Source of the DNA: a virus
UHGV virus genome: UHGV-0785300
Reading direction: 5' to 3' (one strand)
DNA: 27,913 nucleotides
Shown here: positions 2,392 to 26,842 of the stretch, one piece after another
How positions within the stretch are numbered: the first letter of the stretch is position 1
How the letters are laid out: each line of letters opens with the position of its first letter
The notes under the pieces: model-generated
The model's input: only the letters and a program-made list of their open reading frames with translations
Databases searched by the model: none
What the model was told of the DNA's origin: nothing
Program-made: the position numbers and the translations under genes

Positions 2392-2802
2392 ATGAAATTA
2401 CTGGGATATTTTCGTGAACTCCCAACGGGCACTGAAGGCAAGTTGTTCTCACAGGTGAAAGGGGATGACATCGGCGATACGATGATTCCATTGTACACTC
2501 GTGAACTTCCTGTCGAAGGTGCCTGGGAGCGCCGTGTGGTCGCTGCCGCCAACAAATATGGTGATGTAATCGTCGTTGCTGACCGTCACCACAGCCGATT
2601 CATGAACAGCCAGCTCAAGATCCTGAAAGAAGCAGGCGTCATTAAATCCACCCATACCCGCGAACAGGGCTTCATCGACAACCAGGGCAACTTCCTCACT
2701 CGTGAAGAGGCGTGCATCGTAGCCCGTGAAGCTGGACAGATTAATCAGGTGCGCCTGAAGACAACCCCTTTCCGCGAACTCTTTTCCGAAGACCTCTATT
2801 GA
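2392..2802 (+). CDS. hypothetical protein (136 aa)
   Basis: ORF 4 nt after the previous stop; no confident motif. Confidence 0.4.
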   Translation: MKLLGYFRELPTGTEGKLFSQVKGDDIGDTMIPLYTRELPVEGAWERRVVAAANKYGDVIVVADRHHSRFMNSQLKILKEAGVIKSTHTREQGFIDNQGNFLTREEACIVAREAGQINQVRLKTTPFRELFSEDLY

Positions 2803-2809
2803 AGAAAAA

Positions 2810-2827
2810 GGCGGTATTATTACCGCC
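2810..2827. terminator. stem-loop GGCGGTA-TTAT-TACCGCC flanked by an A-run (5') and a weak T-rich tract (3')
   Basis: 7-bp perfect inverted repeat 8 nt after the stop at 2802; U-tract weak on the + strand, better on the - strand. Confidence 0.3.
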
Positions 2828-6474: not shown

Positions 6475-6497
6475 ATAAAGATTCAGCGGTTATTGAA

Positions 6498-6528
6498 GAA
6501 GGGGAGTATATACTCCCCTTCGTTTATT
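6498..6528 (+). terminator. rho-independent terminator (GAAGGGGAGU-AUAU-ACUCCCCUUC then GUUUAUU)
   Basis: Perfect 10-bp inverted repeat 24 nt after the stop at 6474, followed by a T-rich tract. Confidence 0.55.
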
Positions 6529-7783: not shown

Positions 7784-7996
7784 ATGATCATTTCAGGTTA
7801 CACCATCGATCTTTATTGTGAATGCTCAGATTGCAAGGCATGCAGTTGGGCTTGGGAAGAGCATCACCCCAAGTGCGGGTTCAAACAATACACTGGTGAG
7901 ACTTGGGGTGAGTGTGTCAAACAGGCGCGAGCAGACGGCTGGCAAATTGGGCGCGACAGGCATACCTGTTACGCCCCTGACCACAAGAGAAGTTAA
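7784..7996 (+). CDS. small Cys-rich protein (70 aa), putative zinc-binding
   Basis: CxCxxCxxC...HHxxC...C spacing; ATG 2 nt after the upstream stop; 3' end overlaps the convergent gene by 4 nt. Confidence 0.35.
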   Translation: MIISGYTIDLYCECSDCKACSWAWEEHHPKCGFKQYTGETWGECVKQARADGWQIGRDRHTCYAPDHKRS

Positions 7997-8607
7997 GGTA
8001 AGAGCAGTCCATCATCCCGCTCCGTTGGGGCGGGTTTAATCTCCTTCCGCATCTGTTCCTTCAGCACCCTGACACGCTCAGCATGGCGACGGTCTTGCAT
8101 CTCCATATCCCGTTTCTTTTTCGACTTCAATTCGAACTGTTTACGAACATCCGGATCTTCACCCGGAACAAGATGCTCTTCGGTCCATATAATGAACTTC
8201 CAGTTCTTCTTGGCACACAGTTCGCGGGTGGCCTCCCACTTGGCAGAATTGACCAACCAGGTTCGCATCGCATTGTTGAATGTCGACTCCTTCATGTTCG
8301 GAGTCTTCTTCGGCTGCTTGATCTGGTCTTTGGGCTTGATCTCAATGAGGGTGACCTGTAGTTCCTCTTGCCCTTCACGGCGCGTCCAGACCTTGAGGTC
8401 CATGAAGTAACGATGGGTGCGCCCGTCGACTGGGGAAATGTAAGGGATTACGGTCTCCTCACTAGACCACTTCACTATCGCGGAGTTCATATCACAGAAC
8501 TTGAAAGCCACCAACTCCAGCGAAGAGCGGAAGATGATGTTATTCACATTCCCCTGATACTTCTTGGGATTAACCGGGGTGTACTTCCCCTGAAGATAGT
8601 TGCTCAT
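7993..8607 (-). CDS. putative head completion protein (T4 gp4-like), PD-(D/E)xK nuclease fold with basic/acidic C-terminal tail
   Basis: Remembered gp4-family pattern NIIFRSSLE...FKFCD...VKWSSEExVIPYxSPVDGRxHRYFMD...LIEIKP (D...E-x-K nuclease-type motif). Confidence 0.4.
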   Translation of the reverse strand: MSNYLQGKYTPVNPKKYQGNVNNIIFRSSLELVAFKFCDMNSAIVKWSSEETVIPYISPVDGRTHRYFMDLKVWTRREGQEELQVTLIEIKPKDQIKQPKKTPNMKESTFNNAMRTWLVNSAKWEATRELCAKKNWKFIIWTEEHLVPGEDPDVRKQFELKSKKKRDMEMQDRRHAERVRVLKEQMRKEIKPAPTERDDGLLLP

Positions 8608-8657
8608 AATCTAGTCCTAAATAGCCATAACACTCTATCTATTTAAGGGCTGAGACC

Positions 8658-9626
8658 ATGGCCGACTTCAAGAAGACAATCGATAAGATCAAGGTTCTGA
8701 ACACGAAGGGATTGTCCCAGGCTCAGAAGCAATTATCTTATCCCCTGGACGTCACTGGGGGTAAGACCTTGGGACACTATGTCCTATTCAACATCAACCG
8801 CATCTCCGGTTCATCTTATGGCAACACGGCTACTCAGACTATCGAGAACCCAATACAGAACCCTCTGGGGAATACTCCTGTGGTCTATGGGTCCAAGTCT
8901 GGTTCCATCACCAAATATGCATGGGCGCGTCACGTTCGTTCAAACGAGTCTATCGTACTTTGTATGCCTGAGTCCATTACAACCAACTATGGTGTTGGCT
9001 GGAACGGTAGCGAGCTGGGGCTGGCTGGTATGGGGGCACAGTTCCTTTCCCGCGCCGCCCAAGACATGACTCAGTTTAAACTGGGTGATGCGCTCAACGT
9101 CGGGAAGGAGATGGGGCGATTCGCTGCCACCAAGGCTATCCAATCTGCGTCGGAGGCTATTCCATTCCTGCCGAGCATTAACGCTCATGACACCCTTGAG
9201 TTGTTCACAGGCACCATGACCAACCCATATGTGGAGATGATCTTCCAGGGTGTTCGCAACCGTGAGATTCCGTTTACATTCAAATTCACGCCGCGATCTC
9301 AGAAGGAAGCCAAGATGGTCCGTGAGATCATCCGCATGTTCAAGATGCATATGTACCCAGAGTACAAGTACAACAAGAATTCCAGCGCGTTTTACTTGCA
9401 TCCTTCAACATTCGACATTACGTTCATGGTCAATGGGGAGCGTAACCAGTGGCTGCACCGCATCTCCACTTGTGACTTTTCCAACATGTTCGTCAACGAG
9501 ACGCCGGACAGTTCATACGCGGTTCACAAAGATGATGGTATCGTGTCCACGCAGGTTGACATGACCTTCATCGAACTGGAGCCTCTGCATAAAGGGCGCT
9601 TTGAAACCGAAGGCGATAGCTTCTAA
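8658..9626 (+). CDS. baseplate/tail-tube junction protein (T4 gp48/gp54 family)
   Basis: FTFKFTPRSQKE resembles the gp48-type FTWDLTPRSTED motif; C-terminal FDITF and a Cys-containing segment also match the family as remembered. Confidence 0.45.
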   Translation: MADFKKTIDKIKVLNTKGLSQAQKQLSYPLDVTGGKTLGHYVLFNINRISGSSYGNTATQTIENPIQNPLGNTPVVYGSKSGSITKYAWARHVRSNESIVLCMPESITTNYGVGWNGSELGLAGMGAQFLSRAAQDMTQFKLGDALNVGKEMGRFAATKAIQSASEAIPFLPSINAHDTLELFTGTMTNPYVEMIFQGVRNREIPFTFKFTPRSQKEAKMVREIIRMFKMHMYPEYKYNKNSSAFYLHPSTFDITFMVNGERNQWLHRISTCDFSNMFVNETPDSSYAVHKDDGIVSTQVDMTFIELEPLHKGRFETEGDSF

Positions 9627-14670: not shown

Positions 14671-14904
14671 TCACACCTCTTTGTGATTCTTCATCTTGCG
14701 AACAGTGCCCACAAACCCAAGATCCTTCCCGCAATGGGTGCAGATAGCATGGCAAGCATGGTTCTCACGATAGGTGCTGTGTTTGCAGCGCCATTGCTTG
14801 AACGCCGGACGGGCAACTAGGATCACGGCGATCAAGAAGACGATGCCGGATATCTGAAGTTCAACCAAGAACTTCGCCCACCAGAAACTCATACACTCAC
14901 CCAT
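14671..14904 (-). CDS. small membrane-anchored Cys/His-rich protein
   Basis: Start placed at the ATG overlapping the ligase stop; TM helix ISGIVFLIAVILVA then CxH...CxHxxCxHC. Confidence 0.3.
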   Translation of the reverse strand: MGECMSFWWAKFLVELQISGIVFLIAVILVARPAFKQWRCKHSTYRENHACHAICTHCGKDLGFVGTVRKMKNHKEV

Positions 14905-16327
14905 TACTCTTCTCCAACAGGAATGCGATGTTTTCGATGTACGCTTTCTGTATCGCATAGACTTCATCCAGTGTGTTGGCCACTTTCTTGTCAATGCGGA
15001 CTTCTACAAGGCGAGGTAGGAACAAAGACTTCATCGCATCATCGGTCTTATCCTGTACGCCATTGGAGAGCACTGCGGCGATCTTGCCAATGTAGTCGCC
15101 CTGGTTCTCCCACATATGGCGTCTCAGCTCATCTGAGATCCCTGATACGCCAACAACAAGCAGGCTGTCGGAAGTTTTACAAATCAGTGAGCCAAAAGTC
15201 TTGGCGTGTTTACCCTTCTTGTCAGCCTCGTTGAAGCCCACGATTTCAAGGTCACACTCAACCTCCATCTTCAGCTTCAGACCTTCAGAAGAAGTACCAT
15301 CTTCCCACGGCATGTCTGCGGCCTTACATATCGTGCCTTCTTCTTTGCGAGCCAGCGCGTCTTTGAAGTGGTCGACGGCTTCGGCAAATGAGTGAACAAC
15401 GCGGGTTTCTTGAACCTGAACCAGACCGTCGTCTTCATCAAACAGTTGCTGGATAATATCGAAGCGGCGCTCATACGGGGTGTCCACGCGCTGGGCGTTG
15501 AACCAGTTGTCGTACGGGATAACATCCCACACCCGGTAGATCACCCGATAACGATCTTCTAGGGGTTCTCCTGTCTGAATCACGCTGTTGAGTTTACCGT
15601 TACCGACAGCACGAGGCAGGATGGTATTCGACTTGAGGTCAACAACGAGAAGTTCACCATGGAACACACTCTCACCAATCCCCGCATCGTAGATCAGGTC
15701 TTTGAACACCAGTGAAAGGTTATCAACCGAACCACCTGCGATAAGGGAACCGGAGCGAGAGCGAATCTCAGGCTCTTTATTGTACCGACATATGATGTTG
15801 GCGAACATGCCGTCTGACTTCAGCTGGCTGTAGACGCCGCGCTTGAAGTCCATCTTCTTCAGCAGGTCAATCGTCATGTTGTCATAACGATGATACGGAA
15901 GAATGTTGATCAGGCGTCCAGTGCCTCCGGCGGCGTTGAATGCAGCGTTGATGCCCTTCTCAGCGATACCCGCCTTGATATCACGGTCTAGGATCATCTG
16001 AATGAGTTCGTGGTATTGGGGGTCCATCTTCAGGGCGACAGAGGCCAACAGGGCATCAGCCTTTTGGCCACCGACAAGGCGCTGCGCCATCTGGTCGAGG
16101 ACGCCATAGACTTCGCTGATGTCATCAGTCTTCTCACGGACGAGCATGCGAGGGTACGCGCTGAGCTTCAACTCAGTCCGATAGAACGACGTCATTGGGT
16201 CATAGACATATTGCAGGAAGTCTGCCAAGTCTGGGTTGTTCTTGAATGCTTCGGTCAGCACAGCTTTCTTCGCATTGCTGCCTTTGGTTTCGCGAAGTCG
16301 GTGGACTGTTTCAAGGATAGGGATCAT
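14897..16327 (-). CDS. ATP-dependent DNA ligase (T4 gp30-like)
   Basis: Adenylation motif I LKSDG (KxDG) in YSQLKSDGMFANI; N-terminal ILETVHRL...GSNAKKAVL resembles the T4 ligase N-terminus; 476 aa. Confidence 0.8.
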   Translation of the reverse strand: MIPILETVHRLRETKGSNAKKAVLTEAFKNNPDLADFLQYVYDPMTSFYRTELKLSAYPRMLVREKTDDISEVYGVLDQMAQRLVGGQKADALLASVALKMDPQYHELIQMILDRDIKAGIAEKGINAAFNAAGGTGRLINILPYHRYDNMTIDLLKKMDFKRGVYSQLKSDGMFANIICRYNKEPEIRSRSGSLIAGGSVDNLSLVFKDLIYDAGIGESVFHGELLVVDLKSNTILPRAVGNGKLNSVIQTGEPLEDRYRVIYRVWDVIPYDNWFNAQRVDTPYERRFDIIQQLFDEDDGLVQVQETRVVHSFAEAVDHFKDALARKEEGTICKAADMPWEDGTSSEGLKLKMEVECDLEIVGFNEADKKGKHAKTFGSLICKTSDSLLVVGVSGISDELRRHMWENQGDYIGKIAAVLSNGVQDKTDDAMKSLFLPRLVEVRIDKKVANTLDEVYAIQKAYIENIAFLLEKSNG

Positions 16328-16336
16328 GTGGTGTCT

Positions 16337-16369
16337 CCAGGGTTATATGTGCTGTTATTATAACCCTGG
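16337..16369 (-). promoter_or_regulatory. 11-bp perfect stem-loop in the ligase 5' leader, overlapping the SD
   Basis: CCAGGGTTATA-(11 nt)-TATAACCCTGG; the 3' arm ends in ...CCCUGG and runs directly into GAGACACCAC-AUG, so the GGAGA SD is partly inside the stem. Confidence 0.4.
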
Positions 16370-16441
16370 GGACTTCAATAGATTATTGGCGGGTGTGGGA
16401 TCTTGCTTGGCTGATAATGACCGCAAATGTTTCTGTATCCA

Positions 16442-16975
16442 TCATGAACCCTCCGCCCAGACAAAGCCGTATTTGTTCAGTAGATCCACGGTTTCACCAC
16501 GAGCGCGAGCCACGATAGATTCTACTGATTCTTCCACCTCGAGTGGTGGGCAACCAGCCTTTTCGTACGTGTTAAGCAAGAGAGCAAGTTCTTTTACGAA
16601 CTCTTCTTGTTCCTCTCCTCCAAAGAACCACATCCGCAGATCGTCGCGTTCCCCGTGCTTGTTCAGAGAAGCCATATTCACGTACACGTAATCGTTTTTC
16701 TGAACAACGTCATTTATCTCCGGCCAATGCAACCCAGTCATCGCATAATTGAAGAATTCCGAAGGGGTGACTTCATCCGACAAATAATACAAACGGAAGT
16801 CACCGCTGGGGCCATGTTTGCAAGTTCTATCCAGCATTATTTTGTGGATGTCAACACGGTCTCGCTTCAAGACTTCCCGTTTCTTCAGTCGACCTCTCAG
16901 CCAGGCACTGCCAATACACAAAAGAACGAAAGCAGTAGCACCAGTGAGTATGTTGAAAGAATCAATAATGTTCAT
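16442..16975 (-). CDS. membrane-anchored hypothetical protein
   Basis: Start set at the internal ATG (MNIIDSF..., GGGGA SD) because the first ATG lies inside a hairpin; N-terminal TM helix ILTGATAFVLLCIGSAW. Confidence 0.4.
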   Translation of the reverse strand: MNIIDSFNILTGATAFVLLCIGSAWLRGRLKKREVLKRDRVDIHKIMLDRTCKHGPSGDFRLYYLSDEVTPSEFFNYAMTGLHWPEINDVVQKNDYVYVNMASLNKHGERDDLRMWFFGGEEQEEFVKELALLLNTYEKAGCPPLEVEESVESIVARARGETVDLLNKYGFVWAEGS

Positions 16976-16992
16976 AAGATCCCCGAAGTGAT

Positions 16993-17012
16993 AGAGGGGC
17001 ATAAGCCCCTCT
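16993..17012 (-). promoter_or_regulatory. intercistronic GC-rich stem-loop (AGAGGGGC-N4-GCCCCUCU)
   Basis: Perfect 8-bp inverted repeat between the PspA-like stop and the next gene; no U-tract. Confidence 0.35.
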
Positions 17013-17016
17013 GATG

Positions 17017-17625
17017 TTATTTGCTCAGGCTGGCGAGGTAGTTGTCGGCTTCGATAGACGACGGGCTGTTGGCGGAGTAGCTCGAATCAGCGATTTCGGT
17101 TTCGCGCAGGATGGCATCGATATCGATGGTGGTCATACCAGCGGCATAATCGATATCTTCAGGGAGCACCAGACCCAGGTCGTTCGTCTCTTTCTGAACA
17201 CGAACCAGCTCGAGATTGGACTTGACTTCGTCCAGTTTGTCACCCAGCTGGATGATCGCACCGTTCAGTTTGTCGCTGCTTGCTTCGATGTCCTTCACCT
17301 GAGACAACAGGGCTTCACCGATACGGCGGCGATGCAGAATAATCAGGGCGTCGGCGCGGGTTGGTGTGACACCACGAGCGATGGCATCCTTCAGAACTTC
17401 TTCGCGCTTGGCGGCTTCACTCAGGTTCTGTTCTGCGGTCTTCTTCAGCTTGACGCCGTTGCGGACGTTGGTGACACGGGCTTCCTCCAGGCGACGGATT
17501 TCGTCAGACAGCTTGCGAGCAGCCAGGTTCAGGCGCTTTTCGGTGTCGGTCAGTTTATCCAGACTTGTGGTGACGTTGGCTTCAACAGTGGTGAAGATGC
17601 GTTTCAGTAAGTTTTTCAGTGACAT
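17017..17625 (-). CDS. PspA/IM30 (phage-shock protein A)-like coiled-coil protein
   Basis: N-terminal FTTVEANVTTSLDKLTDTEKRL resembles the PspA [21 protein letters not shown] motif; heptad-like charged helices throughout; about 200 aa. Confidence 0.45.
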   Translation of the reverse strand: MSLKNLLKRIFTTVEANVTTSLDKLTDTEKRLNLAARKLSDEIRRLEEARVTNVRNGVKLKKTAEQNLSEAAKREEVLKDAIARGVTPTRADALIILHRRRIGEALLSQVKDIEASSDKLNGAIIQLGDKLDEVKSNLELVRVQKETNDLGLVLPEDIDYAAGMTTIDIDAILRETEIADSSYSANSPSSIEADNYLASLSK

Positions 17626-17642: not shown

Positions 17643-17984
17643 TTATTTCTTCGGGGGTTCAATTGAGGTGAAAGAATCCTTCCAACTCTTGAATTTTTCA
17701 ACCAGGGCTTCTTTACCCAGCTCGTCATTTGACACGCTGTGAATATAGGCGAATGCTCCATAGCCGTATCCTGGCATAGCCTTGCAGATGCGCAGACTGA
17801 CCAAAGAATCTCCTACGGAAACAAGATAGTGGTCACGACGATTGTTCAGGGCATAGTGGTTGTCGTGAAACTTGTCAACAATAACACAGTTCTGAGGTTC
17901 GACGTCAATCGGTAGCCCGTTGGCTTCGGATCCGCCGCGCCCAAGTACGCAGCCTGGGAATAATGTTTCTACGAGTGTAGTCAT
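17643..17984 (-). CDS. hypothetical protein (113 aa)
   Basis: ORF with AGAAGGAA SD; preceded by a promoter-like element. Confidence 0.4.
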   Translation of the reverse strand: MTTLVETLFPGCVLGRGGSEANGLPIDVEPQNCVIVDKFHDNHYALNNRRDHYLVSVGDSLVSLRICKAMPGYGYGAFAYIHSVSNDELGKEALVEKFKSWKDSFTSIEPPKK

Positions 17985-18012: not shown

Positions 18013-18041
18013 ATTATATGGGTGAATAGTTTATTGAATTA
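18013..18041 (-). promoter_or_regulatory. candidate promoter: TAATTCAATAAA box, 11 nt, TATAAT
   Basis: Minus strand reads TAATTCAATAAActattcacccaTATAAT about 29 nt upstream of the ATG at 17984; the same composite motif recurs at 20581..20611 and 26816..26842. Confidence 0.35.
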
Positions 18042-20548: not shown

Positions 20549-20580
20549 GATGTGCTCCTGGTTTATATTCAGATCATAGA

Positions 20581-20611
20581 ATTATACCCTATGACCCGCT
20601 TTATTGAATTA
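20581..20611 (-). promoter_or_regulatory. candidate promoter: TAATTCAATAAA box, 13 nt, TATAAT
   Basis: Minus strand reads TAATTCAATAAAgcgggtcatagggTATAAT immediately after the helicase stop and about 32 nt upstream of the ATG at 20548. Confidence 0.35.
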
Positions 20612-20612
20612 C

Positions 20613-25083: not shown

Positions 25084-26126
25084 ACTACACCTTCCAGGAA
25101 CTTAGGATCAACGATCTTGCGGTCAACCGGAGAATGGGTGAGCGCGGTGTTCAATCCATGATCCTGAATCAGGTCCAGGTTAATGAGCTTGTTATTCAAT
25201 TTGCAGTGCAGGCAGTATGCCATCTGCACAATCAGACCGCGATCCGCATCATACTCCTTCAGGAAGGCAACAACAGTTTCCCAAGGACTACCGAAGTCAC
25301 AATGAACAAGCACGCCAGTGAACAGATCGCGGATATGGTTCTGGTTGGTCACGTTCGTGAAGTGGATCATGGAGTTGATGAACCCAGCTTCTACTTTGGT
25401 GTCCTTCGTGATCTTGCCCAGCTGCTTCTGGCTGACTTCATTGTTGTAGTAATGAAGATTGTTAGAGAATAGCTTGTACTGACCGACATCAACATCCAAC
25501 ACCCGAGCAATCACTTCCTGAAGAATAGAGAACTCAATGAAGTTGATTGAACTCATACCCCACAGAACATCCTGTGAGCGATTGATAACCGTCAGGTTCA
25601 GACGACCTTCAACGATGGCGAACAACAGAGCCAGGTTACACACCATGTCCTTAGTCTTCGCTTCGCCGCTCTCGCTGAACTTCGCCAGACCAGCATCCGA
25701 ATCCAGAGCCGGATCATAGATGGTGAGGTACGCCTGGCGAGTGTTTGGATTCTTGCGCAGGCGGTTGATGACGCTATCCAGCTGGCCATGGGCGTACAGA
25801 CGCGGACCATAAGCGGCTCGCCATGTGTGGCCGTTGTCGGAAAAGTTGGCGGCGCGGGGCAACACGCGGGACAGGAAGCGAACGTCATCGCGCCCGGACA
25901 GAACCCAGAAGGTCTCGCCGATGGCAGCGATAGCCGATGAGTTACGACCTTCAACGGATAGCCAGCGGTCACGGATGTCGGCGACGGTTATGGTCACGCC
26001 ATCAAGGAAGCGGGTGCTATCAGTATTGATTTCAGCATTACCAGGATCAGATTCGATCCCGAATTCACGGATAGCCAAGACAGCCTGTTTCAGCATGTCA
26101 TTGTTGTTTATTGCTTTGATTTCCAT
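25080..26126 (-). CDS. thymidylate-synthase-fold pyrimidine hydroxymethylase (dUMP/dCMP hydroxymethylase-like) with C-terminal extension
   Basis: NPNTRQAYLTIY matches the T4 gp42 and TS motif NPDSRRGIMIY; catalytic-Cys context DMVCNLALLF; NRSQDVLWG matches RSNDVVFG/RSCDVFLG; SNNLHYY matches the TS C-terminal motif; 348 aa versus about 250 for gp42. Confidence 0.7.
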   Translation of the reverse strand: MEIKAINNNDMLKQAVLAIREFGIESDPGNAEINTDSTRFLDGVTITVADIRDRWLSVEGRNSSAIAAIGETFWVLSGRDDVRFLSRVLPRAANFSDNGHTWRAAYGPRLYAHGQLDSVINRLRKNPNTRQAYLTIYDPALDSDAGLAKFSESGEAKTKDMVCNLALLFAIVEGRLNLTVINRSQDVLWGMSSINFIEFSILQEVIARVLDVDVGQYKLFSNNLHYYNNEVSQKQLGKITKDTKVEAGFINSMIHFTNVTNQNHIRDLFTGVLVHCDFGSPWETVVAFLKEYDADRGLIVQMAYCLHCKLNNKLINLDLIQDHGLNTALTHSPVDRKIVDPKFLEGVV

Positions 26127-26785
26127 CAGATACTCCCAAAATCACGACAGAGGAATGCCATCACAGCCTGGTCTACTGTTAGGCCGTGAGACTTCATCAT
26201 ACCCGCAGCCACCGTAGGGAACAAGTCTTTATGTCGTTGACAATGGTCATGAACTCTCTCCCACTTCTCAACCACCAGACTTTCATTGAAGTCCACACCG
26301 CCGTTACGTGATTTAACACGGGCGATACACGTTTCAAGAGGAGTGTCCATAAAGAGCACAACCAATTCACGTGGTGGGCGTGTCAGACGGGGGATCCAAG
26401 AACTCAATAATGTGGATGGAATGATACCTTCGAAAATCACATCATATTTCAAGTATTCTGGTTGGTCAGCAATAGACAACGCGAACAACATCTGCTCAGT
26501 GTCCTTCAGGGAATCAACCCCCTTGGACTTCGACTTGTCATATTTACCGATACAGACCACGTTGAACGAAGGACAGACAGTCAGCATGACCTTGCCGTTA
26601 TGGGTCACGACATACGCCTGAGGATCCCTCTCCGCCAGCTGAGACGGCACAGTGGATTTACCGCTACCATTGGAGCCTTTGACGTAGTAGATTTGCCCTC
26701 GTGCTGGGTAGATCCCCTTTACGACGGGTGGTTTAAAGAATGTGTGGACGGGGCGCTTCATCAGCCCCTTCAGGGAGTAGGACAT
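26126..26785 (-). CDS. P-loop nucleotide/polynucleotide kinase-like protein (candidate hydroxymethyl-pyrimidine kinase)
   Basis: Walker A VKGSNGSGKST near the N-terminus; 219 aa; ATGA coupled to the hydroxymethylase gene; GGAGCAG SD. Confidence 0.5.
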   Translation of the reverse strand: MSYSLKGLMKRPVHTFFKPPVVKGIYPARGQIYYVKGSNGSGKSTVPSQLAERDPQAYVVTHNGKVMLTVCPSFNVVCIGKYDKSKSKGVDSLKDTEQMLFALSIADQPEYLKYDVIFEGIIPSTLLSSWIPRLTRPPRELVVLFMDTPLETCIARVKSRNGGVDFNESLVVEKWERVHDHCQRHKDLFPTVAAGMMKSHGLTVDQAVMAFLCRDFGSI

Positions 26786-26815
26786 AAACTGCTCCGATAA
26801 ACAAAAGGAGCTGCT

Positions 26816-26842
26816 ATTATAGCAACCCCTTCATCTATTGAA
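26816..26842 (-). promoter_or_regulatory. candidate promoter: TTCAATAG box, 13 nt, TATAAT
   Basis: Minus strand reads TTCAATAGatgaaggggttgcTATAAT about 30 nt upstream of the kinase ATG at 26785. Confidence 0.35.

What the first reader, a model, noticed from the sequence alone, without database searches (positions are those of the whole stretch)
16337..16369. Perfect 11-bp stem-loop in the DNA ligase leader, overlapping the ribosome-binding site
The 3' arm of the hairpin runs directly into the GGAGA SD 10 nt before the ligase ATG, and the element also contains a TATAAT. This could be a translational repressor or RNA-processing site, or a protein operator (it is palindromic as DNA).
Basis: seen in the sequence. 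Interest (0 to 1): 0.5.

Follow-up and report, generated by a model that had tools for sequence, protein, structure and literature searches.

The report
Promoter-in-hairpin that masks ligase ribosome site
The stem-loop in front of this phage's DNA ligase gene is real and conserved, and most likely hides the ribosome-binding site on long read-through messages while a promoter inside the hairpin makes a short translatable message, a trick already known from phage T4.

Summary
The window comes from an Ackermannviridae phage, 98% identical to Escherichia phage vB_EcoM-ZQ1. The hairpin is real and lies on the minus (ligase-sense) strand. Its arms are a perfect 11 bp, extendable to 15 bp with one C·A mismatch (16333-16373, about -19 kcal/mol). 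The whole GGAGA Shine-Dalgarno sits in the 3' arm.

The hairpin is conserved across at least four phage lineages, with wobble and two compensatory changes. The 54-nt leader is 72-81% identical where third codon positions are about 46%.

The TATAAT (16357-16362) is invariant although half of it lies in an otherwise variable loop. An invariant A lies exactly 7 nt downstream (16350), and a conserved box CTATTGA lies at about -30.

Best model: read-through mRNA has a masked RBS, costing 17-22 kcal/mol to open. A transcript started in the loop lacks the 5' arm and costs about 2.5 kcal/mol.

The same design recurs in this genome. TAAATA late-type motifs pair with the RBS of the endolysin and tail genes, and about 12 hairpins carry a -10-like hexamer in the loop.

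This is a new member of known kinds: T4 e/soc/49/I-TevI leader hairpins and PeSL promoter/stem-loop cassettes. Promoter activity and the start site are inferred, not shown.

The parts
16333..16373 (-). Full leader hairpin: 15-bp stem with one C·A mismatch and an 11-nt loop
   Evidence: Conserved in 10 distinct variants, with 92% of cells paired.
16359..16373 (-). 5' arm (GUCCCCAGGGUUAUA). It lies in the spacer and -10 of the proposed promoter, so it is absent from the promoter-derived transcript.
   Evidence: Its substitutions between lineages are mostly C<->U or A<->G and keep pairing.
16348..16358 (-). Loop (AUAACAGCACA). It is variable between lineages except the AAU of the -10 and the A/C at the predicted start.
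   Evidence: invariant columns.
16333..16347 (-). 3' arm (UAUAACCCUGGAGAC), which contains the Shine-Dalgarno
16334..16338 (-). Shine-Dalgarno GGAGA, 6 nt upstream of the ATG. P(unpaired) is about 0 in read-through RNA, except for the mismatched A.
16357..16362 (-). TATAAT, the proposed -10 hexamer. It straddles the top of the 5' arm and the loop and is invariant in all variants.
16350..16350 (-). Predicted transcription start. An invariant A lies 7 nt after the -10 and would give a 23-nt leader without the 5' arm.
   Evidence: A38 and C39 conserved. This is an inference and the start site is not mapped.
16371..16381 (-). Conserved upstream box CTATTGAAGTC at about -31 to -21. TATTGAA/TTCAATA is the most intergenic-enriched 7-mer of the genome.
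14897..16327 (-). ATP-dependent DNA ligase gene (476 aa), the regulated gene
16383..16445 (-). 20-aa upstream ORF whose stop codon lies 10 nt before the hairpin. It is a remnant of a larger small-protein gene in relatives. No terminator lies between it and the hairpin.
18013..18038 (-). Nearest upstream promoter-like cassette (TTCAATAA-N12-TATAAT, with the -10 in a small hairpin loop). It is the likely source of the read-through transcripts that carry the ligase hairpin.
   Evidence: This is an inference.

Best explanation
The element is a composite promoter and RNA hairpin in the ligase leader. It makes ligase translation depend on which promoter the mRNA came from.

Transcripts that start upstream run into the ligase gene. 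The nearest promoter-like site is at about 18013-18038 on the minus strand, and these transcripts pass through ORFs 17643..17984, 17017..17625, 16442..17002 and 16383..16445. They contain both arms, so the GGAGA Shine-Dalgarno is locked in a helix of about -19 kcal/mol and 30S binding is strongly inhibited.

A second promoter is embedded in the same DNA. It consists of a conserved box CTATTGA at about -30 and a -10 TATAAT at 16362-16357. It should start transcription at or near the invariant A at 16350, inside the loop. That RNA lacks the 5' arm, has an open RBS and is translated.

Shown here: the hairpin, its conservation and covariation, the purifying selection on the leader, the energetics, and the recurrence of the same architecture in the genome.

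Inferred: that the TATAAT and box are an active promoter, the position of the start site, that read-through transcripts exist, and the timing. The likely timing is delayed or replication-phase expression, as for other genes behind this box type.
For: (1) Structure. The helix gives z = -4.35. It is conserved in Aglimvirinae, Kuttervirus, Taipeivirus-like Klebsiella phages and Serratia phage IME250, with 92% of cells paired. Two pairs change on both sides (A-U/G·U/G-C and U-A/G-C) and three pairs vary by wobble only. Only 8 of 500 shuffles reach the observed score, and slid registers give 27-53% pairing. Sense-strand dG stays between -16.5 and -24.6 kcal/mol.

(2) Selection. The leader is 72-81% identical between genera where third codon positions are 45-47%. 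BLAST alignments to 226 distant genomes begin at window 16384-16387, the upstream edge of the box.

(3) Promoter signature. TATAAT is invariant although AAT lies in a loop whose other positions vary. An invariant A lies exactly 7 nt downstream, and CTATTGA upstream is nearly invariant.

(4) Energetics. Opening SD to +5 costs 16.9-22.2 kcal/mol in read-through RNAs and 2.4-2.6 kcal/mol in RNAs started at 16348-16352.

(5) Same design elsewhere in the genome. The ligase ranks 5th of 184 genes for RBS occlusion. The top four are late genes whose TAAATA late-type motif pairs with their SD, including the endolysin. About 16 sites of the form TTCAAT-N14(±1)-TATAAT exist, and about 12 of them have the -10 in a hairpin loop.

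(6) More distant Ackermannviridae. Erwinia phiEa2809 and Serratia Kevin keep a TTCAAT-N13/14-TAAAAT site before the ligase gene but have no hairpin. An own promoter for the ligase therefore appears older than the hairpin.

(7) Precedent. T4 e, soc, 49 and I-TevI work this way (PMC3014915). PeSL cassettes place stem-loops over the -10 (PMC2839356).
Against: No transcript 5' ends, RNA-seq or reporter data exist for this site.

There is no TTGACA-like -35 at 16-18 bp, and the sigma-70 scan did not call the site. The conserved box lies only 10-14 bp from the -10, which is not a geometry that sigma-70 uses unaided. No MotA/AsiA-type activator was found (Kutter 2011, PMC3184105).

The covariation rests on only 10 related variants. 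In this window's own clade the antisense hairpin is slightly more stable than the sense one.

Neither the AG3 nor the LIMEstone1 annotation lists a promoter here.

Ligase is expected to be needed early. The benefit of masking it on read-through RNA is therefore not obvious.
Confidence: 0.55

Rival explanations
1. The element is only an RNA hairpin that throttles or tunes ligase translation, or stabilises the mRNA, on all transcripts. It contains no internal promoter. The TATAAT and the upstream box are conserved for another reason, such as RNA-level recognition by a protein or nuclease.
For: The structure, conservation and energetics fit. No canonical -35 is present and the promoter scan did not call the site. 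The AU-rich single-stranded AAUAAUCUAUUGAAG directly 5' of a stem resembles the context of RNase E sites (general knowledge).
Against: With a 17-22 kcal/mol barrier, ligase, which is a core replication enzyme, would hardly be translated at all. The AAT of TATAAT and the A 7 nt downstream are invariant in an otherwise variable loop, which a pure stem function does not explain. TATAAT-like hexamers sit in hairpin loops at about a dozen other intergenic sites.
Confidence: 0.15
2. The element is a DNA-level operator. A dimeric phage or host protein binds the inverted repeat, whose half-sites are 22 bp apart centre to centre, and represses or activates the overlapping ligase promoter.
For: A perfect palindrome overlaps a -10-like hexamer. 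The half-site spacing of about two helical turns is compatible with dimer binding. The U-A to G-C double change in Klebsiella phage Bullseye also preserves DNA symmetry.
Against: In Kuttervirus, LIMEstone and Klebsiella May the lower stem is kept only by G·U pairs. This leaves 2-3 DNA mismatches and costs 4-6.6 kcal/mol on the antisense strand. The outer half of one arm is simply the SD. Analogous hairpins elsewhere in the genome have unrelated arm sequences, so no common operator sequence exists.
Confidence: 0.1
3. The element is a transcription terminator, attenuator or 3'-end-protecting stem-loop for the upstream genes. This is the terminator half of a PeSL-type cassette, and inclusion of the SD is incidental.
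For: Sister hairpins with -10-like loops in the same genome are followed by T-runs. They are listed as rho-independent terminators in phage AG3 (Torf021, Torf031, Torf069 and Torf075). PeSL stem-loops terminate efficiently.
Against: No U-tract follows this stem (GGAGACACCACAUGAUCCC), and the terminator scan did not call it. The stem top is A/U-rich and the loop is 11-13 nt, which is atypical for intrinsic terminators. The lower-stem pairing with the SD is the best conserved part, being kept even in IME250 where the upper stem is damaged.
Confidence: 0.1
4. The element is a chance palindrome without function.
For: 11% of shuffled windows contain a perfect inverted repeat of 11 bp or more.
Against: It is conserved with compensatory changes across genera whose silent sites are saturated. 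It is placed precisely over the SD.
Confidence: 0.02

Closest known systems
T4 leader hairpins of genes e (lysozyme), soc, 49 and I-TevI (McPheeters et al. 1986; reviewed in PMC3014915)
   Same: The SD is sequestered in a helix on long read-through transcripts. A promoter lies in or next to the DNA that encodes the 5' arm, so its transcript lacks that arm and is translated.
   Different: The T4 cases use gp55-dependent late promoters (TATAAATA) and control late or harmful genes. Here the embedded element is a sigma-70-type TATAAT with a non-canonical box at about -30, and the gene is a replication enzyme. Function is untested here. The same phage does have T4-like late versions, for example the endolysin leader.
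PeSL/PmSL composite promoter/stem-loop cassettes of T4-like phages RB49, phi1, PST and nt-1 (PMC2839356, PMC4122927)
   Same: The element is intergenic, between an upstream stop codon in AT-rich sequence and the downstream SD and ATG. The stem-loop overlaps the -10 box. It is one of many similar cassettes in the genome.
   Different: PeSLs have consensus -35 and -10 boxes, and their stem-loops act as terminators. This element has no canonical -35 and no U-tract, its 3' arm is the SD itself, and it is tied to a conserved core gene rather than to ORFans in hyperplastic regions. PeSLs have not been described for Ackermannviridae in the papers read.
T4 MotA/AsiA-dependent middle promoters
   Same: The geometry matches: a conserved box centred near -30, a sigma-70 -10, and no -35. 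Boxes of this type precede replication and nucleotide-metabolism genes (rIIA, gp32, RNR, ligase).
   Different: The box sequence is TTCAAT/CTATTGA, not TGCTTtA. No MotA or AsiA homologue was found (PMC3184105). The resemblance concerns how it may work and is not membership.
RBS-sequestering hairpin of the homing endonuclease gene mobE in Aeromonas phage Aeh1 (Gibb & Edgell 2009, cited in PMC3014915)
   Same: An RNA hairpin masks the RBS of a gene that is embedded in a longer transcription unit.
   Different: The gene class differs.

Membership tests
T4-type RBS-masking leader hairpin relieved by an internal promoter | A stable helix that includes the SD and/or the AUG | tested here: met
   GGAGA is paired. 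P(unpaired) is 0.004 or less except for the mismatched A, and opening costs 17-22 kcal/mol.
T4-type RBS-masking leader hairpin relieved by an internal promoter | A promoter placed so that its transcript starts inside the hairpin and lacks the 5' arm | tested here: inconclusive
   An invariant TATAAT, an invariant A at +7 and a conserved box at about -30 are present. There is no canonical -35, and no start site has been mapped.
T4-type RBS-masking leader hairpin relieved by an internal promoter | Read-through transcripts from upstream promoters reach the gene | tested here: inconclusive
   No terminator-like site lies between 16442 and 16373. The upstream ORF 16442..17002 has no promoter of its own. 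No RNA data exist.
T4-type RBS-masking leader hairpin relieved by an internal promoter | Lower translation from long RNA than from short RNA | not testable with these tools
   This needs reporter fusions or toeprinting.
PeSL composite promoter/stem-loop cassette | Intergenic position between an upstream stop codon in an AT-rich stretch and the downstream SD and ATG | tested here: met
   The order is CAATAA stop, AT-rich box, hairpin, SD, ATG.
PeSL composite promoter/stem-loop cassette | Sigma-70 consensus -35 and -10 boxes | tested here: not met
   The -10 is a perfect TATAAT. The hexamers 16-18 bp upstream are AATCTA, TAATCT and ATAATC, and the scan did not call the site.
PeSL composite promoter/stem-loop cassette | A stem-loop overlapping or adjacent to the promoter boxes | tested here: met
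   The 5' arm is the spacer, and the -10 straddles the arm and the loop.
PeSL composite promoter/stem-loop cassette | The stem-loop works as a terminator or attenuator | tested here: not met
   There is no U-tract, and the terminator scan did not call it. Sister cassettes at 2797, 6491 and 26837 do have T-tails.
Rho-independent terminator | A GC-rich stem with a short loop, followed by a U-run | tested here: not met
   The loop is 11 nt, the stem top is A/U-rich, and the 3' flank is ACACCACAUG.
T4 MotA-dependent middle promoter | A MotA box (a/t)(a/t)(a/t)TGCTT(t/c)A centred at -30, and motA/asiA genes | tested here: not met
   The box is CTATTGAAG. tblastn with recalled T4 MotA and AsiA sequences finds nothing significant in ZQ1 (this is a weak test). 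Kutter 2011 reports no MotA or AsiA in ViI-like phages.
RNase III processing hairpin | About two helical turns of dsRNA (roughly 20 bp), often with an internal loop | tested here: not met
   The stem is only 14-15 bp in all variants.
Any curated RNA family (Rfam 15) | A match at the gathering score | tested here: not met
   No hit in the window at the gathering threshold. The only hit is a chance mir-365 match at E = 1.8.

The most novel reading that the evidence does not exclude
The ligase hairpin may be one instance of a genome-wide rule in Ackermannviridae. Promoters of two classes would be written so that they base-pair with the RBS of the gene they serve, so that every such gene is translated only from its own promoter's transcript.

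One class is the late [CT]TAAATAcc motif. The other is a so-far undescribed class with a '-30 box' (TTCAAT or CTATTGA, 10-14 bp from TATAAT) in front of replication and nucleotide-metabolism genes.

The -30-box class would be a middle-type, activator-dependent promoter that works without MotA or AsiA. It would answer the open question raised for CBA120/ViI in 2011, when early and middle promoters could not be identified.
Probability: 0.3. Interest if true: 0.6.

Novelty: new member of a known kind. Interest (0 to 1): 0.4.

Why it matters
If correct, the element explains how a ViI-like phage uncouples ligase synthesis from read-through transcription of the upstream early genes.

It also gives a concrete, testable promoter with a predicted start site at 16350, in a phage family whose early and middle promoters were reported as unidentifiable (PMC3184105).

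The recurrence of promoter/RBS-pairing hairpins, including on the endolysin gene, suggests that this T4 device is a general organising principle in Ackermannviridae. That is relevant to engineering these phages, which are widely used for biocontrol and detection, and to annotating their regulatory sites. Several such hairpins are currently filed simply as terminators.

Tried and rejected
None carries the ligase leader.

(2) A search for transcriptomics or TSS data on Ackermannviridae and for the CTAAATA motif in the literature found nothing usable.

(3) The T4 late consensus TATAAATA is under-represented in the window, with 2 sites at one mismatch or fewer against about 10 expected. The TATAAT is therefore not a T4-type late promoter.

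(4) The arm sequence is not a dispersed repeat. There are no other copies at one mismatch or fewer.

(5) A canonical sigma-70 promoter was rejected, because there is no -35 at 16-18 bp.

(6) An intrinsic terminator was rejected, because there is no U-tract.

(7) An RNase III site was rejected, because the stem is too short.

(8) A RegA operator was considered and set aside. The region around the AUG (GACACCACAUGAUCC) is not AU-rich like known RegA sites. This rests on my own knowledge and was not tested.

(9) An N4-type DNA hairpin promoter was considered and set aside. Those have stems of about 5-7 bp and 3-nt loops and need a virion RNA polymerase. This also rests on my own knowledge.

(10) MotA/AsiA homologues gave no significant tblastn hit with recalled sequences.

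(11) Translational coupling from the 20-aa upstream ORF was rejected. Its stop codon is 10 nt before the stem, so a terminating ribosome would open at most 1-2 base pairs.

Full report
**Context**

The window is 98% identical to Escherichia phage vB_EcoM-ZQ1 (Ackermannviridae, Aglimvirinae). Genes run on the plus strand up to 13535 and on the minus strand after that. The DNA ligase gene is 14897..16327 on the minus strand. The finding must therefore be read on the minus strand.

**Observation**

- The minus strand reads ...CAATAATCTATTGAAGTCCCCAGGGTTATAATAACAGCACATATAACCCTGGAGACACCACATG.
- The 11-bp arms at 16337-16347 and 16359-16369 are perfectly complementary, with an 11-nt loop.
- The helix extends to 15 bp with one C·A mismatch, spanning 16333-16373.
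- As RNA the region folds at -21.6 kcal/mol (z = -4.35, 0 of 200 shuffles as good). The bare hairpin gives -18.9 kcal/mol.
- It is the only perfect inverted repeat of 11 bp or more with a loop of 3-20 nt in the window. 11% of dinucleotide shuffles contain one, so length alone is weak evidence.
- The whole GGAGA Shine-Dalgarno (16338-16334) is inside the 3' arm, 6 nt from the ATG.
- TATAAT lies at 16362-16357.

**Conservation**

I collected ligase leaders from 19 IMG/VR Ackermannviridae genomes and several GenBank phages. This gave 10 distinct variants from Agtrevirus-like phages, Limestonevirus, Kuttervirus, Klebsiella phages and Serratia phage IME250. They align almost without gaps; there is one single-base indel upstream of the hairpin (alignment A1).

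On the 15-pair structure:
- 92% of cells are standard pairs. With the 3' partner slid by 1-3 columns this falls to 27-53%.
- Seven pairs never vary.
- Three pairs vary on one side only (C-G to U·G, U-A to U·G).
- Two pairs change on both sides (A-U / G·U / G-C, and U-A / G-C).
- 8 of 500 shuffles reach the observed score.

The sense-strand hairpin stays between -16.5 and -24.6 kcal/mol in all lineages. In four lineages it is 4-6.6 kcal/mol more stable than the antisense version because of G·U pairs. In this window's clade the reverse holds.

The 54-nt leader is 72-81% identical between genera whose third codon positions are only 45-47% identical. In 226 distant genomes the BLAST alignments begin at window 16384-16387, the upstream edge of the conserved box. 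The leader is therefore under purifying selection and travels with the ligase gene, while the upstream genes differ.

**Promoter signature**

- Within A1 the TATAAT is invariant, although its AAT lies in the loop, whose other positions vary freely.
- An A exactly 7 nt downstream (window 16350) and the following C are invariant or nearly so.
- CTATTGA, just 5' of the stem, is nearly invariant.
- A start at about 16350 would give a 23-nt leader that lacks the 5' arm.

Opening the RBS from the SD to +5 costs 16.9-22.2 kcal/mol in read-through RNAs. It costs only 2.4-2.6 kcal/mol in RNAs that start at 16348-16352.

Read-through RNAs are expected for two reasons. ORF 16442..17002 has no promoter of its own behind the hairpin at about 17000. 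No terminator-like site separates that ORF from the ligase leader. The nearest promoter-like cassette upstream is at 18013-18038.

**Genome-wide context**

I assembled the ZQ1 genome.
- TTCAATA/TATTGAA is the most intergenic-enriched 7-mer, with 26 of 56 copies in the 10% of the genome that is non-coding (p about 1e-12). It is ahead of the late-type CTAAATA.
- Aligning intergenic TATAAT-like hexamers shows about 16 sites of the form TTCAAT-N14(±1)-TATAAT. The box is therefore centred near -30.
- These sites lie mostly before replication and nucleotide-metabolism genes: rIIA, gp32, RNR, the kinase/td operon and ligase.
- 12 of 72 candidate -10 hexamers sit in the loop of a perfect inverted repeat of 6 bp or more, against 8% of random intergenic positions.
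- The AG3 paper lists several of these hairpins as rho-independent terminators, and one also as a promoter. It lists the ligase hairpin as neither. LIMEstone1 has no feature there.

I ranked all 184 ZQ1 genes by RBS opening energy; the median is 6.8 kcal/mol.
- The ligase is 5th, at 16.6 kcal/mol.
- The top four are late genes: endolysin 22.8, tail spike 20.6, one unnamed gene 19.1, and tail fibre 17.7.
- In these four a [CT]TAAATAcc motif forms the 5' arm and the SD forms the 3' arm.
- 8-10 of 18 genes with such a motif upstream show this pairing.

This is the arrangement known for T4 gene e. The ligase hairpin is the TATAAT-type counterpart. The cassette at 26804-26837 is a second one.

**More distant relatives**

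Erwinia phiEa2809 and Serratia Kevin have TTCAAT-N13/14-TAAAAT in front of the ligase gene but no SD hairpin. Vibrio phages K471 and D504 have neither. An own promoter for the ligase thus seems older than the masking hairpin.

**Comparison with known systems**

T4 genes e, soc, 49 and I-TevI have SD-sequestering helices on early transcripts. Promoters inside the 5' part of the structure give translatable RNAs (PMC3014915).

PeSL/PmSL cassettes of T4-like phages combine promoters with stem-loops that commonly overlap the -10 box (PMC2839356; PMC4122927).

The ligase element works like the former and is built like the latter. It fails two PeSL criteria, a consensus -35 and a terminator function. 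Its box is not a MotA box, and no MotA or AsiA is detectable (PMC3184105). No Rfam family matches.

**Verdict**

The hairpin is real, conserved and very probably functional at the RNA level as an RBS mask. The internal-promoter relief mechanism is well supported by sequence logic and by parallels within the genome. It is unproven without 5'-end mapping.

It is a new member of a known kind. The wider pattern, a -30-box promoter class and systematic promoter/RBS pairing in Ackermannviridae, is the more interesting lead.

Noticed in passing
window 8608-8657 (between 7993..8607 on the minus strand and 8658..9626 on the plus strand): The divergent spacer between the gp4-like and gp48-like late genes holds two opposed TAAATAG late-type motifs that are complementary to each other. 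Each transcript can therefore fold a hairpin that occludes its own RBS, with opening costs of 12.7 and 16.3 kcal/mol.
   Followed up: partly
window 26804-26837 (minus strand), upstream of 26126..26785: This is a cassette TTCAATAG...TGcTATAAT, with the -10 in the loop of a terminator-like hairpin followed by a T-run. AG3 lists the homologue as both Porf067 and Torf069. A longer helix pairs the box region with the SD of the downstream kinase-like gene (14.7 kcal/mol).
   Followed up: partly
window 2797-2827 (plus strand), 6491-6521 (plus strand), 18013-18038 (minus strand), 20549-20612 (minus strand): These are further box-plus-hairpin cassettes: TATTGAAG or TTCAATAA, about 10-14 nt, then a TATAAT-like hexamer in a hairpin loop. 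6498-6521 is a perfect 24-bp palindrome. The AG3 homologues of the first two are annotated only as terminators (Torf021 and Torf031).
   Followed up: partly
ZQ1 genome (L025-L027), e.g. record positions 84638, 1909, 73992 and 5161: Leader hairpins pair the late-type motif [CT]TAAATAcc with the Shine-Dalgarno of the endolysin and tail genes. These are the four most occluded RBSs of 184 genes. The endolysin case mirrors T4 gene e.
   Followed up: partly
ZQ1 genome-wide (L025-L027): TTCAATA/TATTGAA is the most intergenic-enriched 7-mer (26 of 56 copies in 10% of the genome). It occurs 14 ± 1 nt upstream of TATAAT-like hexamers before replication genes, and also inside or upstream of canonical TTTACT-N17-TATAAT promoters. 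It may mark an undescribed promoter class.
   Followed up: partly
window 16383-16445 (minus strand): A 20-aa ORF overlaps the stop codon of ORF 16442..17002 (ATGA). Its C-terminus (...QARSHTRQ*) matches the end of longer small-protein genes in relatives, such as the 50-aa orf046 of AG3. It looks like a deletion remnant.
   Followed up: no
window 16992-17013 (minus-strand sense): A GC-rich hairpin CAGAGGGGC-UUAU-GCCCCUCUA lies between the e.6-like gene and ORF 16442..17002, without a clear U-tract here. The AG3 homologue is listed as terminator Torf049. The downstream ORF has no promoter of its own, so transcription must read through this hairpin.
   Followed up: no
L150 (Serratia phage Kevin) 340-2037: The annotated ligase CDS starts about 260 nt upstream of the conserved MIETIH... 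start and runs across a terminator-like hairpin and a TTCAAT-N14-TAAAAT site. The start is probably mis-annotated.
   Followed up: no
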